Source: Allosphingosinicella sp. (lineage in GTDB: Bacteria; Pseudomonadota; Alphaproteobacteria; Sphingomonadales; Sphingomonadaceae). Taken from it: a DNA stretch of 47,083 bases. Below, piece after piece: positions 21,286 through 31,820 of the stretch. The stretch lies in NCBI GenBank assembly GCA_035936615.1, contig DASYWC010000195.1:1-47083 (forward strand), given 5' to 3'. Below the pieces are notes generated by a model that made no database searches, was not told the origin of the DNA, and was given only the letters and a program-made list of their open reading frames with translations. A program made the position numbers and the translations under genes. Position 1 is the stretch's first letter, and every line of letters begins with the position of its first letter.

Positions 21286-22062
21286 TTGGTGAGGCCGGTG
21301 AACAGGAGCTGGAACCACGATCGAACCAAGGCAGTGATCGGCGTCGCCGTCTTCCACGCATTGCTGGGCTACGGCCTGATCGCGGGGCTCGGTTTCCAGC
21401 TCCCGGAGCAGGTCACGGACAATTTCAAGGTCTTCGACGTCCCCAGGGAGGAGCCTCCTCCGCCGATAGTCGAACCGCCTGCTCCCAAGACCAAGGCGAA
21501 GGAGCCCGAAGGCGCGGCCTCGCCCCCGAACATCAAGTCCCGGCCGACGCCCGTCGTAGCTCCGCCTCCGAAAGTGCGCCTGAAGGTGCCGCCGAAGATC
21601 GTGACAGCGCCCAAGGCGCTCCCGGTGCCGCCGGGCAACGATCCGACCGCCGGCTCCTCCAACGTTGTAGGTCCGGGCACGGGCAGCGGCGGAACCGGCA
21701 CCGGAACCGGGAGCGGCGGCTCCGGCACCGGAAGCGGCGGCGGCGGTGACGGCGAGGGCGGCGGCCAGTTCCAGCCGGCGCGGCGCGAGCGCGGCGGCTT
21801 TACCCGCCAGGACTATAACCGGCTCGCCAAAGGCCGACAGGTAAACGGCAGGGTCTACGTGCGCTACACTGTGCGGCCTGACGGAGGGGTGAGCGGCTGC
21901 ACGATCACACGGCCGAGCGGCTGGCCGGATGTCGACTCAACAACTTGTCGGTTGATCGAGCAAAGATTCCACTACAAGCCCGCGACTGACCCGCAGGGTA
22001 GGCCTATTCCGTATGTGAAAAACACGTATTTCACGTGGAGCTATCTACCCATACCGGAGTAG
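21286..22062 (+). CDS. TonB-like energy transducer
   Basis: N-terminal TM with His, Pro-rich and Gly-rich linker, C-terminal G.V..C.I..SG..D..C..F.PA.D..G domain. Confidence 0.8.
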   Translation: MVRPVNRSWNHDRTKAVIGVAVFHALLGYGLIAGLGFQLPEQVTDNFKVFDVPREEPPPPIVEPPAPKTKAKEPEGAASPPNIKSRPTPVVAPPPKVRLKVPPKIVTAPKALPVPPGNDPTAGSSNVVGPGTGSGGTGTGTGSGGSGTGSGGGGDGEGGGQFQPARRERGGFTRQDYNRLAKGRQVNGRVYVRYTVRPDGGVSGCTITRPSGWPDVDSTTCRLIEQRFHYKPATDPQGRPIPYVKNTYFTWSYLPIPE

Positions 22063-27785: not shown

Positions 27786-28682
27786 ATGACCGACCTCCTC
27801 CTCCAGACCCTGCGCCCCACGACCCATGACCTCGGGGGGTTCAAGGTGCACCGCACCCTCCCCCACAAGGAGCGGACGACCGTCGGCCCGTTCATCTTCT
27901 TCGACCAGATGGGGCCTGCGCACCTTCCGCCGGGGGAAGGGCTCGACGTCCGGCCGCACCCGCACATCAACCTTGCGACGGTCACCTACCTGTTCGCAGG
28001 CGCGATCGACCACCGCGACTCCCTCGGCACGTTCCGGACCATCGAGCCCGGCGCGGTGAACCTGATGACCGCGGGTAAGGGCATCGTCCATTCCGAGCGC
28101 TCGCCTGCCCAGCTTCGCTCCGACGGGCCTGAGCTCAGCGGTATCCAGACCTGGCTCGCCTTGCCGCAGTCGAAGGAGGAGATGGACCCCGCATTCGAGC
28201 ACGTCTCGAAGGACGACCTGCCGTCGATCGAGGCCCAGGACGCGACCGCCCGCATCGTGATGGGAAGCCTCTGGGGCGCGACCTCCCCCGTCACCTGCCA
28301 CAGCGAGACCATCTACGCCGATCTCGCGCTTCGTCCGGGCGGAAGGGTGCCGATCGATCCGGGAGCCGACGAGCGCGCCATCTACCTAGCCGAAGGAGAT
28401 GCAAGCATCGACGGCCTGCCTCTGAAGCCCCACGTCCTCTACGTGCTCCGCCCCGGCATCGCCGCCACCCTCCGCTCGGAGCGCGGCGGTCACGTCATGT
28501 TGTGCGGAGGAGCCCCGATGGACGGCCCCCGCTTCGTCTGGTGGAACTTCGTCTCGTCGAGCCGCGACCGGATCCGTCAGGCGCGCGAGGACTGGAAGGC
28601 CCAGCGTTTCCCGGTCGTGCCCCAGGATGCCGAAGAGCGGATCCCGCTCCCCGAGGCAGCCAGGACCGTCAGCTACCCTTAG
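27786..28682 (+). CDS. Pirin family protein
   Basis: VGPFIFFDQMGP, RPHPHI, HRDSLG, MTAGKGIVHSE and WWNFVSS. Confidence 0.95.
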   Translation: MTDLLLQTLRPTTHDLGGFKVHRTLPHKERTTVGPFIFFDQMGPAHLPPGEGLDVRPHPHINLATVTYLFAGAIDHRDSLGTFRTIEPGAVNLMTAGKGIVHSERSPAQLRSDGPELSGIQTWLALPQSKEEMDPAFEHVSKDDLPSIEAQDATARIVMGSLWGATSPVTCHSETIYADLALRPGGRVPIDPGADERAIYLAEGDASIDGLPLKPHVLYVLRPGIAATLRSERGGHVMLCGGAPMDGPRFVWWNFVSSSRDRIRQAREDWKAQRFPVVPQDAEERIPLPEAARTVSYP

Positions 28683-28806
28683 GCGCGATCCGGCTTGACC
28701 GTGGCCCCGCCTCGGGGCAGTTTCGTACGGTCCAAATGTCGGAGCGAAGCGCCTGGTACTCACAGTTCTATCGATTGCTGCCTCCGCACAAGCAGCGGTT
28801 GCCCCA

Positions 28807-29157
28807 GTGCCACCACCTCCGCCTACGGGGTGCGATCCTTTCATGATTTTCTTTGACTGGGGAAGCACAGCCATACCTGCGCAATATCAGCAGACCATCG
28901 ACACCATCGTTTCCGCGCGGGAGAGCGTCAGATCTCACATCCAAGTAGTGGGTCACGCTGACTCTTCCGGCTCAAGTGCTTATAATCTGAGGCTGTCGCA
29001 CCGCCGAGCCAAATCCGTGGAAGCAGCCTTGATCGCCAAGGGATTTCCCAAGCAGCGGATCGTCACTGCAGGGCGTGGAGAGAGTAATGTCCTCGTGCAA
29101 ACTCCCGATGGTACCCCGGAGGCTAAAAACCGGATCGTTACGGTCTGCTTTTACTGA
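28807..29157 (+). CDS. Small OmpA-like peptidoglycan-binding domain protein (start uncertain)
   Basis: IFFDWGS, VGHADSSG, YNLRLSHRRA, GRGE and NR.V. The frame extends upstream into a signal-like stretch KRLVLTVLSIAASAQA that lacks an in-frame ATG. Confidence 0.8.
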   Translation: MPPPPPTGCDPFMIFFDWGSTAIPAQYQQTIDTIVSARESVRSHIQVVGHADSSGSSAYNLRLSHRRAKSVEAALIAKGFPKQRIVTAGRGESNVLVQTPDGTPEAKNRIVTVCFY

Positions 29158-29249
29158 TTAGCTAATCTCGGCCCATGGCAAACAGCTTGCGCCGGCAGCA
29201 GGCCGGCCCAAGTAAGTGAGTTCCTAGTCAGCTGGGCGGGGCCACCTAA

Positions 29250-30065
29250 TTATCCAGGGCAGTCTCCGAGCGCAAGAGCGACCTTCTGGCCCAAAGTGTC
29301 CCTGTCCCTGTCGTTTCTGTCATAGCCGTGCAACTCGTACTGATTCGTATCCTTCGGACCTGACGGCCCCAAGACATACTGGCGAAACTGTGCCACCTCG
29401 ATGCTCGCTTGGCTCGGTGACATCCCATGATCTGTTTCAAGCGAGCTTTTGATCATTTTCGCGGTTTCATCAAACGCGTACCAATCGCCCTTCCCGCCTG
29501 CTGCAGCGTCAGGTGTCGGGTACATCTTGAATTCCGGGTCGTTCTCGATGAATTGCCCCGCAGGATGCGAATGAACCATGGCAAGAACTTGGCCCCAGTT
29601 CTGAATGCCTGCGAAACTCGGCTGGACCCATGTAGGCCCGCCTAGGGTGACAGGTGCATGGTTGATGCTCCCGTCGGTGTCCCGGTAGATCAGTGCGCCA
29701 TACTCATTGGTGTCTTTGTCCGGCTTTGCCATGATCTCGGTAGCGACCCTGGCGGCCTGTTGCGATACCCGATAATCGCGCAGCTCTTGCGGAGTCATCT
29801 TGCTCGGGTCCCGGCAGTCCAGGTCTGGCGGCGTTGCTTCGCCCGTTTCATCGGCCGGGTCAATGCTGGCATCGCCCGATTCCGGCCCTCCCAGGCCTTC
29901 TCCTGAGCCTCCTCCTCCTGCCCCATAATCGGCGTAACCCTCGAAGGCATCGCCTCTGATGCGGCGGCCAACGACAACGATTTCCTGGCCTTCGCCGCCG
30001 ATGATCGCCTCGGCTTCCGCGTCGGTCAAAGGCCGCAGGGCCGAACTCTTGAATGGCAGTGTCAT
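29250..30065 (-). CDS. Double-glycine-leader protein with a TonB-box-like motif and a JAB/MPN-like (DUF4329-like) domain; putative secreted toxin/effector
   Basis: AAGGAG RBS before MTLPFKSSALRPLTDAEAEAIIGG|EGQEIVVVGRR; Gly/acidic linker; EYGALIY...VHSHP...YPTPD...GDW. Confidence 0.7.
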   Translation of the reverse strand: MTLPFKSSALRPLTDAEAEAIIGGEGQEIVVVGRRIRGDAFEGYADYGAGGGGSGEGLGGPESGDASIDPADETGEATPPDLDCRDPSKMTPQELRDYRVSQQAARVATEIMAKPDKDTNEYGALIYRDTDGSINHAPVTLGGPTWVQPSFAGIQNWGQVLAMVHSHPAGQFIENDPEFKMYPTPDAAAGGKGDWYAFDETAKMIKSSLETDHGMSPSQASIEVAQFRQYVLGPSGPKDTNQYELHGYDRNDRDRDTLGQKVALALGDCPG

Positions 30066-30129
30066 TTCTTCTCTCCTTGGCGCTTCGGGCGGGGAACGAG
30101 GATGTTTGCGCCGGGGCATCCTTCGTTTG

Positions 30130-30636
30130 TTAAATCCTGGGTGGGGGATCGCTGCGGGCCCCGGTGGACTGAAGCAGCAGGGCTGCGTGCGGGCTGTCGA
30201 ACCTTGTGAGTTCCAGAACCGCTCCCGTGAAACGAGACGAAAGCTCCGCTTCTTCGAGCGTCCGAACGCCGGCCCGCGGATCGTGAATCCGGAATCGGCG
30301 AGCGTCTGAAAGGTCCCGCTCGACCGAAACCAACACCACGAAGTGAACCGCGTTCCAGTGGAGGATCGCGGGGAGCGCGAGTTGTTCGAGATGCTGGGGC
30401 CCGCCTTCGAAGCCGCGCGCGCGAAGCCCGATCCGGGCTGCTGCGCCGATCAGCGCCTTGAGCGTCGCTCCTTGCGCAGACAGCATGCAAAGCCGGCGCA
30501 GCTCGGGGAGGCCGGCGTTGAGGCCGTGATACCCTGCGACCATTGCCAGGCACGCCAGCCCACATTCGTTGGGGGCTGCCTGAGGGACATAGGGCGTCGA
30601 GCCTGTGTGGAGGCTCAGAGCACCGGCGGTATCCGT
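30130..30636 (-). CDS. Stand-alone C39 cysteine peptidase (PCAT leader-peptidase domain without ABC transporter); start codon unclear
   Basis: The frame extends upstream of the tracked ORF: TPYVPQAAPNECGLACLAMVAGYHG...LPAILHWNAVHFVVL...IHDP (Q, C, H, D all present); stops right after LELT. Only a CTG (30618) is in frame; the ATG at 30640 is out of frame. Confidence 0.75.
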   Translation of the reverse strand, partial: TDTAGALSLHTGSTPYVPQAAPNECGLACLAMVAGYHGLNAGLPELRRLCMLSAQGATLKALIGAAARIGLRARGFEGGPQHLEQLALPAILHWNAVHFVVLVSVERDLSDARRFRIHDPRAGVRTLEEAELSSRFTGAVLELTRFDSPHAALLLQSTGARSDPPPRI

Positions 30637-30766
30637 TCATTCCGCAGCGGTCCCGCAACAAGCCAGGGCTTGGATGATTCGAAGCTGGGTGCGTTTCCGC
30701 AGCAGGTCATGCCAGTTCCTCCCATTCCCGCCGAATCGGCTGGAACAAATAAAGAACATCTCAAAT

Positions 30767-30795
30767 CCTATTTGCAAACGCATTTTCCAAATAGG
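30767..30795. promoter_or_regulatory. AT-rich inverted repeat, candidate operator
   Basis: CCTATTTGCAAA-CGCAT-TTTCCAAATAGG (12-bp arms, one mismatch) upstream of the C39 gene. Confidence 0.4.
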
Positions 30796-30851
30796 TTAGA
30801 ACACCGGCAATCGAATCACCCGAGTGGGCCGGATGGGAGGGTTGGCAGCGC

Positions 30852-31820
30852 CTAGTTGACGGGCAGGTTCGGGACCAGCGGCGCGCCCTGGCGCTGCTTC
30901 AGCCGGATCTCCTGGATCGTCCTCAGGGCCGCTGCGATGCGCTCTGCGCGACCCGGATGGGTGCCGTCGGAGAACGTTTCCAAAAACGCGCTTGGGCCCG
31001 AGCGCTGCCAGAAAGCCGGGGCAGCCTCCAGGTCGAACCCGGCGCGGGCGAGCATGTAGAGCGCCAGGTAGTCGGCCTCCATCTCCGTCCGCCTGATCTT
31101 GGCCGCGCTTCCGTCGAGCGCCCTTAGGACGCCGCGCGATGCCTTCTGCCGGTCGAGCCGAACCCTGTGACCGAGCGCGTTGTGCGCCATTTCGTGGGCG
31201 ATCACGAGAGCAAGCTCGTCGTCACTACCGGCCTGCTCCACGATTGCGGTGGTGATCTGGGCGTAGGTTCCGTCGGCCTTGGCGTTGAGCTTGCCCGAAG
31301 GGACGAGCTGCACGCGCGAAAGGCAGCCGGGCTCCGGCCGAAGGGTCGCCGATCGCCTGCTTCCCTCCCGGTTGAATTCGATCTCCACCGGACCCGATTC
31401 CATGCTCGCGAGCAGCAGCTCTTCCACCGCCTGCACCCGGCCGTAGCTCCCCCTGCTCCTGGCCGCGGCTCGCGGGAAAGCCCTGCCGCCGACGGTGAGG
31501 ATCGCATCTCCCCGCCGAAGCCCGGCCCGATCCGCGGCGCTCCCCGGGATAACCGCCAGCACCGCAAGCTCTTCGCCAAGGCCGAACGTAGCGGCGGCCG
31601 ATGCCCTGTCGCGGGCGGAATACTGCTCCAGGCCATGCAGGAGCAGCCCGCTAAGCGGCATGGTTCGAGGGCAAATGTCCGCGTTGGAGCGCGCGAGGCG
31701 GTGGCCCAGCGTCGCAACCCGCTCATCCATCGCCTGAAGCGCGACCAGCGCCGGATCCGGCGCGGCGAGGGCCGCCACCGGAAGGCACAGGATTGCAAGG
31801 AGGAGACTAGGCTTCAGCAC
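30852..31820 (-). CDS. M48 family metallopeptidase with PDZ domain
   Basis: Signal peptide; V.PGSAADRAGLRRGD PDZ; ELALVIAHEMAHN, E.EAD and THP. Confidence 0.85.
   Translation of the reverse strand: MLKPSLLLAILCLPVAALAAPDPALVALQAMDERVATLGHRLARSNADICPRTMPLSGLLLHGLEQYSARDRASAAATFGLGEELAVLAVIPGSAADRAGLRRGDAILTVGGRAFPRAAARSRGSYGRVQAVEELLLASMESGPVEIEFNREGSRRSATLRPEPGCLSRVQLVPSGKLNAKADGTYAQITTAIVEQAGSDDELALVIAHEMAHNALGHRVRLDRQKASRGVLRALDGSAAKIRRTEMEADYLALYMLARAGFDLEAAPAFWQRSGPSAFLETFSDGTHPGRAERIAAALRTIQEIRLKQRQGAPLVPNLPVN

What the first reader, a model, noticed from the sequence alone, without database searches (positions are those of the whole stretch)
29250..30636. C39 peptidase + GG-leader/TonB-box/JAB-domain protein: candidate new class of exported, TonB-imported toxin
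Seen: a C39 peptidase ORF lies directly upstream of, and co-oriented with, a 271-aa protein beginning LRPLTDAEAEAIIGG. Cleavage after GG would expose EGQEIVVVGRR, followed by a Gly/acidic linker and a domain with EYGALIY...HSHP...PT..D/GDW. Established: [LM]xxL[ST]xxExxx[IV]xGG leaders are cut by C39 domains of CvaB/RaxB-type PCATs; EIVVTG.R is the usual TonB box of alphaproteobacterial TonB-dependent receptors; group B colicins use an N-terminal TonB box for entry; E..HxH..D JAB/MPN domains occur as polymorphic-toxin tips. Inference: the protein is exported like a microcin and enters target cells like a colicin, delivering a metallo-enzyme. I do not know of this combination as a described system.
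Basis: partly seen in the sequence, partly recalled or inferred. Interest (0 to 1): 0.9.

Follow-up and report, generated by a model that had tools for sequence, protein, structure and literature searches.

The report
Microcin-exported, TonB-box polymorphic toxin family
This soil-bacterium gene belongs to a family of proteins that join a microcin-type export tag, a motif matching the bacterium's own TonB-uptake signal and a swappable enzyme tip, usually followed by a partner gene with a secretion signal; it is likely an undescribed antibacterial weapon that would act in the target's cell envelope, although this copy lacks its partner gene and sits beside a probably broken piece of its exporter.

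Summary
The sequence observation holds. The 271-aa protein (29250-30065, minus strand) has a double-glycine leader, then EIVVVGRR (close to this genome's own TonB-receptor boxes), a Gly/acid linker and a JAB/MPN fold (AlphaFold and fold search; DUF4329/Tox-JAB-2-like). It belongs to a sphingomonad family (160 hits).

In relatives, the same leader+box module carries JAB, SLT/lysozyme-like, HExxH, PLA2-like or hydrophobic tips. It usually sits beside HlyD + a full PCAT exporter, often with a Fic gene. JAB members are followed by a signal-peptide, two-cysteine partner (18 of 24 loci) that tracks the tip. That is polymorphic-toxin anatomy, pointing to action in the periplasm rather than on DNA.

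Corrections: the neighbouring C39 has no start codon before its catalytic Cys, ends at the domain boundary, and is the only stand-alone one among 126 listed hits, so it is likely a remnant of the family's PCAT. HlyD and a PCAT start lie on contig C174. This copy has no partner gene and lies in a 2.2-kb inserted islet.

Export, cleavage, toxicity and TonB import are inferred, not shown. Ten literature searches found no description.

The parts
29250..30065 (-). Cargo gene, 271 aa (P0001): GG leader + TonB-box-like motif + Gly/acid linker + JAB/MPN (Tox-JAB-2/DUF4329-like) tip
29994..30065 (-). Double-glycine leader, residues 1-24 (core LTDAEAEAIIGG at 29994-30029); predicted PCAT cleavage after G24
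   Evidence: helix 15-23 in model
29961..29984 (-). TonB-box-like motif EIVVVGRR, residues 28-35, four residues after GG
   Evidence: 8 of 11 plug-bearing frames of this genome carry I[IV][VI]T[GA] before the plug, e.g. GQEIIVTGQR; enrichment
29835..29960 (-). Disordered Tyr/Asp/Gly-rich linker, residues 36-77; candidate receptor-binding or modified segment (inferred)
   Evidence: pLDDT below 50 at 35-62 and 64-70; sequence
29253..29834 (-). JAB/MPN domain, residues 78-271: E121, H165, H167, T184, D194; C84 and C269 (possible disulfide, not measured)
   Evidence: E121 in 139 of 139, H165 136, H167 134, D194 133, C269 107; VIA Z 6.9 to PfJAMM1, 6.4 to RadC
30073..30078 (-). Ribosome-binding site AAGGAG for the cargo gene
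   Evidence: sequence
30098..30123 (.). 10-bp hairpin between the C39 stop and the cargo ribosome site
30130..30640 (-). Stand-alone C39 domain (frame 30130-30636; C25/H98/D119), ending at the PCAT domain boundary; ATG at 30638-30640 is one base out of frame; likely a PCAT remnant
28699..29157 (+). Convergent OmpA C-terminal-domain ORF with a signal-peptide-like stretch but no in-frame ATG before it; part of the same islet
   Evidence: Pfam OmpA E 6.3e-21
28683..30851 (.). Inserted islet (GC 60% vs 69% in flanking genes) between a pirin gene and an M48 peptidase gene
   Evidence: a contig of run X3 joins 28654 to 30877, skipping 2222 nt; GC

Best explanation
The gene encodes a GG-leader + TonB-box-like + JAB-fold protein that is likely one member of a sphingomonad polymorphic toxin family: it would be cut at GG and exported by a PCAT-HlyD system, would likely be pulled across a neighbour's outer membrane by TonB, and would likely act in the periplasm, where relatives encode a predicted immunity partner. 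Shown here: the architecture, the fold, swapping of tips on one N-terminal module, exporter genes beside most leader-bearing relatives, and a signal-peptide two-Cys partner gene that tracks the tip. Inferred: cleavage, export, TonB pulling (a colicin-M-like minimal design with no inner-membrane step), toxicity, and a Zn-dependent hydrolysis of an envelope substrate (peptidoglycan peptide or a periplasmic protein). In this window the system is partial. The cargo is intact but has no partner gene, the C39 is likely a remnant of a deleted PCAT, and any processing would more likely come from the HlyD-PCAT whose start lies on contig C174.
For: Fold: AF2 mean pLDDT 84; the 22 top-ranked VIA rows are all JAB/MPN-type entries; Atlas neighbours are DUF4329 and Toxin-JAB1; relatives hit DUF4329 at E 2e-6 to 0.03. 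Exporter context: leader-bearing JAB cargo has PCAT and/or HlyD within about 6 kb in 5 of 11 other loci (G014, G072, G126, G063, G130), against 0 of 10 intact leaderless JAB members. Leader-bearing cargo with other tips has them in 10 of 11. A motif-only DNA scan of GTDB gave 14 matches; 3 were true leaders and all 3 lay behind HlyD+PCAT. Tips: SLT E 0.001, M91-like HExxH E 0.005-0.011, PLA2-like C..HD..Y by eye and hydrophobic helices; one locus has four tandem cargos behind one PCAT. Partner: 18 of 24 other JAB loci have a co-oriented 130-160-aa hydrophobic-N-terminus gene, with two invariant Cys in 19 aligned; nearest tip and nearest partner agree in 11 of 14 pairs. G130 (leader+PCAT) shares tip and partner with leaderless G136 and G069. 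Box: matches 8 of 11 of the genome's own plug-bearing receptors; IIVT is a mutationally tested TonB box in Sphingobium (PMC6874591 passages); by eye it is absent from the short GG-leader peptides beside the other PCATs. C39 remnant.
Against: No experiment or complex prediction was run. The box also occurs in a non-receptor TraB/GumN protein of this genome, and here has V for the conserved T. All tip annotations are below Pfam cut-offs, and P0001 itself has no Pfam or NCBIfam hit. Best VIA Z is 6.9, in the range the tool calls middling. This copy has no partner gene, and none was found in the assembly (91.7% complete). Six of 11 leader-bearing JAB loci show no intact exporter gene nearby, and many members have no leader at all. 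A membrane-anchored DUF4329-like JAB sits in a housekeeping-looking context in 7 sphingomonad genomes, so this fold need not be toxic. No random-gene control was run for the signal-peptide filter, and tip-partner covariation follows from linkage alone. Zhang 2012 proposed nuclease activity for Tox-JAB-2.
Confidence: 0.62

Rival explanations
1. The adjacent C39 is a working stand-alone leader peptidase (non-ATG start or slippage) dedicated to this cargo.
For: Catalytic C25/H98/D119 are kept, and the cut falls exactly at the domain end. Two short contigs of another run (X2, about 87-90% identical) carry the same short form, with 11 synonymous vs 10 non-synonymous codon changes over about 72 S and 192 N sites, and H98 kept.
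Against: No ATG/GTG/TTG before the catalytic Cys, and the ATG at the homologous start register is out of frame. It is the only stand-alone form in 126 listed hits from 151 genomes. The X2 sample is small (40 of 42 differences listed, depth 3.5-4) and does not cover the start.
Confidence: 0.25
2. The islet is a decaying relic: cargo, C39 and OmpA-like genes are no longer expressed or exported in this strain, although the family is real.
For: Two of three islet ORFs lack a normal start; there is no partner gene; broken members occur in G064, G090, G240 and G249.
Against: The cargo frame, ribosome site and all catalytic residues are intact. Two homologs at 53-61% identity keep the whole design. 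HlyD and a PCAT start of the same clade are on C174.
Confidence: 0.3
3. The family is not a weapon: it is a secreted envelope enzyme or signal with a periplasmic partner, and the box is a generic TonB-family binding strand or a self-assembly strand.
For: The motif occurs in a TraB/GumN protein; a housekeeping-looking anchored JAB exists; the partner's fold search gave only generic beta-sheet matches.
Against: Tips are swapped among unrelated hydrolase and membrane-type domains, occur in tandem arrays, are patchily distributed (21 of 150 genus genomes), are often broken, and JAB tips come with a matching partner gene: the usual toxin-immunity pattern.
Confidence: 0.15
4. It is a toxin, but the JAB tip reaches the cytoplasm and acts as a RadC-like nuclease, as proposed for Tox-JAB-2.
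For: RadC is among the best fold matches (Z 6.4; HMM E 0.29); proposal in PMC3482391 section 26.
Against: Partners carry signal-peptide-like N-termini and two Cys; the tip has a conserved terminal Cys (106 of 139); no inner-membrane translocation domain is evident; the recognisable sister tips act on the envelope; Imm65 for Tox-JAB-1 is also a lipoprotein.
Confidence: 0.12

Closest known systems
Class II microcins (MccV/CvaAB type)
   Same: Double-glycine leader, C39-PCAT + HlyD-type exporter, downstream immunity-like gene; several class II microcins enter via TonB-dependent receptors (PMC10233263 passages).
   Different: The mature protein is 247 aa with a folded enzyme tip, against the <10 kDa definition. 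[quoted passage not shown]
Group B colicins, especially the colicin M family
   Same: Unstructured N-terminal TonB box, short targeting region, swappable envelope-acting catalytic tip, periplasm-side immunity (PMC5821083 passages).
   Different: Colicins are released by lysis (burkhocins by a Sec signal); here a GG leader and PCAT. No folded receptor-binding domain is seen, and the tips are JAB, SLT-like, HExxH, PLA2-like.
Tox-JAB-2 / DUF4329 tips of RHS, T6SS and T7SS polymorphic toxins (Zhang et al. 2012, PMC3482391)
   Same: JAB/deaminase-like fold; E, H[ST]H, S/T, D residues.
   Different: No RHS stalk; T1SS-type leader (T1SS and TonB have zero occurrences in the held text, the first 300,000 characters); the partner is secreted rather than Imm-NTF2-2; P0001 does not hit DUF4329 and relatives fall below its cut-off.
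Caulobacter CdzC/CdzD
   Same: Alphaproteobacterial T1SS-exported bacteriocin with a predicted G[GAS] leader (PMC5380434 passages).
   Different: Cdz proteins are 60-151-aa glycine-zipper peptides; 'TonB' does not occur in that paper's text; no enzyme tips.

Membership tests
Class II microcin | N-terminal double-glycine leader | tested here: met
   LTDAEAEAIIGG; L5/E9/G15/G16 invariant in the 18-row module alignment
Class II microcin | PCAT + membrane-fusion protein exporter | tested here: inconclusive
   Beside the cargo in 15 of 22 leader-bearing loci of relatives; in this genome only a C39 remnant is adjacent, and HlyD plus a PCAT start lie on a 2-kb contig
Class II microcin | Mature peptide of about 10 kDa or less | tested here: not met
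   247 residues after GG; definition from PMC10233263 passages
Class II microcin | Cognate immunity gene | tested here: not met
   None downstream in the window or by HMM in the assembly; a candidate is present in 18 of 24 related loci
Group B colicin | TonB box in an unstructured N-terminus | tested here: met
   Sequence-level only: matches 8 of 11 own receptor boxes; low pLDDT around it; V replaces T
Group B colicin | TonB-dependent uptake and killing | not testable with these tools
Group B colicin | Folded receptor-binding domain | tested here: inconclusive
   Only a 42-aa disordered linker lies between box and tip
Group B colicin | Release by lysis, no export leader | tested here: not met
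   GG leader and PCAT context
JAB/MPN superfamily | MPN fold with E...HxH...S..D metal site | tested here: met
   S is T184 here, with an insertion before D194
Tox-JAB-2 / DUF4329 | Pfam PF14220 at gathering score | tested here: inconclusive
   P0001 no hit; relatives 14.9-27.9 bits against cut-off 28.6; Atlas structure row meets its naming bar, TM 0.40/0.59
Tox-JAB-2 / DUF4329 | RHS/T6SS/T7SS trafficking with cytoplasmic Imm-NTF2-2 | tested here: not met
   No RHS region; partners have signal-peptide-like N-termini
Polymorphic toxin system | Conserved N-terminal trafficking module with variable C-terminal tips and linked immunity | tested here: met
   At least five tip types on one module; partner tracks tip in 11 of 14 pairs. 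Toxicity itself untested
Cdz bacteriocin | 60-151 aa with glycine zipper | tested here: not met
   271 aa with an enzyme domain; criteria from PMC5380434 passage
PCAT (CvaB/RaxB type) | C39 + transmembrane + ATPase domains in one frame with a start codon | tested here: not met
   The PCAT profile matches only positions 23-159 of 739 in the islet; no start before the catalytic Cys

The most novel reading that the evidence does not exclude
Sphingomonads run an undescribed class of polymorphic bacteriocins: 20-30 kDa enzymes exported without lysis by a microcin-type PCAT, whose leader cleavage unmasks a TonB box so that the target's own TonB pulls them into the periplasm. There, JAB tips act as a new kind of envelope-targeting zinc hydrolase blocked by a new periplasmic immunity family, and the Fic (and sometimes sulfotransferase) enzymes beside the exporter may decorate the Tyr/Asp linker as a receptor lure.
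Probability: 0.45. Interest if true: 0.87.

Novelty: new variant of a known kind. Interest (0 to 1): 0.74.

Why it matters
It would join two routes usually treated as separate: non-lytic microcin export and colicin-style TonB import. It would show natural PCAT export of folded-enzyme toxins well above the 10 kDa microcin limit, a possible chassis for delivering proteins into sphingomonads. It also makes an old question testable: what JAB/DUF4329 toxin tips do. The secreted partners argue for a periplasmic substrate rather than the nuclease role proposed in 2012, and they supply matched tip-partner pairs for the test.

Tried and rejected
Pfam and NCBIfam gave no hit for P0001. Pattern scans for close relatives found none in genome contigs (58 stretches, none confirmed) or metagenome contigs (180 stretches, none confirmed), so the loci of P0002 and P0003 were not seen. 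It is therefore unknown whether the short C39 and the OmpA-like gene travel with them.

The family was not found in 400 evenly drawn class-level genomes (about 4 per family, 7 candidates scored each), which does not show absence. Of 13 order-level hits in 300 genomes, 7 were a different, membrane-anchored JAB gene and were not counted as cargo. Eleven of 14 DNA-pattern matches were chance hits in unrelated genes.

No RNA holder was listed for the islet, which is no evidence on expression. The partner's model (pLDDT 85) gave no clear fold match: mostly beta-propeller blades, with the periplasmic lysozyme inhibitor PliI at rank 26, Z 6.5. No HlyD or PCAT membrane/ATPase remnant was found in the islet. 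No Fic or partner homolog was found in this assembly. I considered the OmpA-like ORF as the immunity gene but found no support: the OmpA query labelled no frame in the 24 related loci.

Complex prediction (TonB with the box; tip with partner) was not available, and an Atlas look-up for the partner did not complete. The scan's earlier notes showed nothing.

Full report
OBSERVATION. The 271-aa ORF lies at 29250-30065 (-) behind an AAGGAG site. It reads leader (residues 1-24, core LTDAEAEAIIGG), EGQEIVVVGRR, a disordered Tyr/Asp/Gly linker, then a folded domain from about residue 78. The C39 domain 64 nt upstream is real (Pfam E 6.6e-32), but its frame 30130-30636 has no ATG/GTG/TTG before the catalytic Cys. 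An ATG sits one base out of frame, 24 codons before ECG, the spacing seen in three homologous PCATs (G084, G130, G078). Contigs of run X1, probably the source of the window and so not independent, show no indel there.

SETTING. The genome is a 2.4-Mb, 91.7% complete assembly, likely Sphingomonadaceae: a source labels the family member P0008 as Allosphingosinicella, and the same protein lies in a same-genus genome. The cargo, the C39 and a convergent OmpA-domain ORF form a 2.2-kb islet of 60% GC between pirin and M48 peptidase genes of 69% GC. A contig from another run joins 28654 to 30877, an empty site. HlyD and the start of a PCAT (50% identical in the C39 part) lie on the 2,088-bp contig C174, which ends inside the PCAT.

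THE TIP IS A JAB/MPN DOMAIN. A profile of P0001-P0003 found 160 proteins at E<=0.001 among 1.84 billion. I aligned 139 of the 152 ids held, dropping 13 fragments or repeat-driven hits. E121 is present in 139 of 139, H165 in 136, H167 in 134 and D194 in 133; 106 of 139 have a Cys in the last eight residues. The AlphaFold model has mean pLDDT 84. The 22 top-ranked rows of the wide fold search are JAB/MPN-type entries (PfJAMM1 Z 6.9, rmsd 3.4 over 110; RadC 6.4). Foldseek ranks BRCC36 and Rpn11 homologs first, though none reaches E<=0.001. The Atlas places it near DUF4329 and Toxin-JAB1. P0001 has no Pfam hit, and relatives score below the DUF4329 cut-off.

LEADER AND BOX ARE NOT CHANCE. Of 124 family members with a long enough N-terminus, 78 have a loose box (2.2 expected by shuffling), 45 a strict one (0.2) and 43 a leader (0.7). 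In 24 a box follows the leader, in 19 of them within 2-7 residues. Among 66 of 71 hits whose best stretch excluded the N-terminus, 32 still have the loose box (1.25) and 19 the leader (0.41). Eight of 11 plug-bearing frames in this genome have the same motif before the plug, e.g. GQEIIVTGQR against the cargo's GQEIVVVGRR. In Sphingobium SYK-6 the IIVT box is needed for uptake (PMC6874591, passages). Against this, a TraB/GumN protein of this genome also carries EIVVTARR, and the cargo has V for T.

RELATIVES SHOW THE FULL SYSTEM. 21 of 150 same-genus genomes match. Leader-bearing JAB cargo has PCAT and/or HlyD within about 6 kb in 5 of 11 other loci (G014, G072, G126:C20, G063, G130; not G108, G090 twice, G112, G249, G274:C36). 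None of 10 intact leaderless members has them; two broken G064 copies were set aside. The same module carries other tips: SLT-like (E 0.001), HExxH/M91-like (E 0.005-0.011), PLA2-like (motif by eye) and hydrophobic helices. Ten of 11 such loci have exporter genes, and G246 has four tandem cargos behind one PCAT. A motif-only scan of GTDB gave 14 matches: 11 chance and 3 true leaders (Erythrobacter rubeus, Qipengyuania aquimaris, a Sphingomonas MAG), all behind HlyD+PCAT. A Fic gene is a frequent neighbour. Other PCATs of the genus mostly carry short GG-leader peptides with no box by eye (20 loci).

A SECRETED PARTNER FOLLOWS THE TIP. In 18 of 24 other JAB loci a co-oriented 130-160-aa gene with a hydrophobic N-terminus follows. 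Of the six misses, three are cut by contig ends and three show a two-Cys ORF that the filter missed. One hit (G112) is doubtful, and no random-gene control was run. Two Cys are invariant in 19 aligned partners; a profile finds 42 more relatives, none with a Pfam domain; the fold is a beta-meander with no clear match. Nearest tip and nearest partner agree in 11 of 14 pairs (Pearson 0.95, Spearman 0.25). Linked genes would co-vary anyway, so this shows linkage, not binding. G130, with leader and PCAT, shares tip and partner type with leaderless G136 and G069, which shows module swapping. The window has no such gene, and none was found in the assembly.

THE LOCAL C39. Searching 151 genus genomes gave 126 listed matches. 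The window's is the only one in a short frame; the other 125 lie in frames of 354 aa or more (I did not check the few under 550 aa for contig ends, except C174; the tally includes two unpublished genomes, G105 and G168). Six of its nine best hits outside this genome are the PCATs beside leader+box cargo (57% to G063, where the PCAT directly precedes a JAB cargo). The other three sit by GG-leader proteins without a box. It ends where the PCAT membrane domain would begin, so I read it as a deletion remnant. Against that, two short contigs of run X2 carry the same short form at about 87-90% identity, with 11 synonymous and 10 non-synonymous codon changes over about 72 and 192 sites, so some constraint, past or present, is possible.

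MECHANISM. Inferred: a PCAT cuts after GG and exports the 247-aa protein. The freed N-terminus presents a TonB box; the linker likely binds a TonB-dependent receptor; TonB pulls the protein into the periplasm; the zinc site hydrolyses an envelope substrate; the periplasmic partner blocks it in kin. The secreted partners, the terminal Cys pair, the lack of an inner-membrane domain and the envelope-type sister tips favour this over the nuclease role proposed for Tox-JAB-2 (PMC3482391, section 26 and passages). A membrane-anchored DUF4329-like gene in 7 sphingomonad genomes suggests that the fold can work outside the cytoplasm, and also that it need not be toxic. How leaderless members leave the cell is unexplained.

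COMPARISON AND NOVELTY. It works like a class II microcin for export and like colicin M for entry, but fails defining features of both. MccV is stated not to have its own TonB box (PMC12511343, passages); colicins leave by lysis (PMC5821083, passages); microcins are under 10 kDa (PMC10233263, passages); Cdz proteins are 60-151-aa glycine zippers (PMC5380434, passages). Ten full-text searches returned no description of this combination, judged from listings, abstract starts and the passages named. The library lacks most subscription papers, and I read no supplements; those of PMC3482391 could list such proteins. General statements on C39 leader cleavage, JAMM chemistry and Fic AMPylation are recalled knowledge.

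VERDICT. New variant of a known kind; interest 0.74.

Noticed in passing
L007, L009, L034, L035, L041, L048, L050, L052, L053, L065, L066, L098, L099, L102, L170, L171, L174: A Fic/DOC gene recurs beside this PCAT clade and its cargo, and sulfotransferase genes occur in L050, L065, L106 and L109. The cargo linkers are rich in Tyr/Asp, so they could be modified (untested).
   Followed up: partly
L148, L150, L151, L153, L154, L156, L157: A conserved, N-terminally membrane-anchored DUF4329-like JAB protein near ilvC, usually before a lactate-dehydrogenase-like gene, in several sphingomonad genera; it looks like housekeeping (profile match to the family E 3.4e-7).
   Followed up: partly
window 28699-29157 (+): OmpA C-terminal-domain ORF with a signal-peptide-like stretch but no in-frame ATG before it (ATG one base off; GGAG then CTG is a possible start). 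A 67%-identical database homolog is also called at 104 aa.
   Followed up: partly
L042, L043, L045, L047, L049, L052; P0004, P0009, P0023, P0136: Many members replace or precede the GG leader with a 100-170-aa acidic N-terminal region (often starting MTF.GFDAA..LIE) yet keep the box; export route unknown.
   Followed up: no
L161, L164, L065: Some cargos carry two box-like motifs, one after the leader and one before the tip.
   Followed up: no
L177:614-1450 (G000:C141): A TraB/GumN-family protein begins with a TonB-box-like EIVVTARR although it is not a receptor.
   Followed up: partly
L101, L103, L105-L109, L112, L114: Other PCATs of the genus sit by short GG-leader peptides (22-49 aa cores, many Cys-rich), sometimes in triplicate: unexplored RiPP-like precursors.
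   Followed up: no
L099 (G134:C199): PCAT locus followed by a run of small membrane-protein genes, resembling an immunity array.
   Followed up: no
window 21286-22062 (+): One of five TonB C-terminal-domain genes of the genome lies 7 kb from the islet.
   Followed up: partly
window 30670-30770 (-): A strong GGGAGGA site precedes a 31-codon ORF just upstream of the C39 frame; no HlyD similarity detected.
   Followed up: partly
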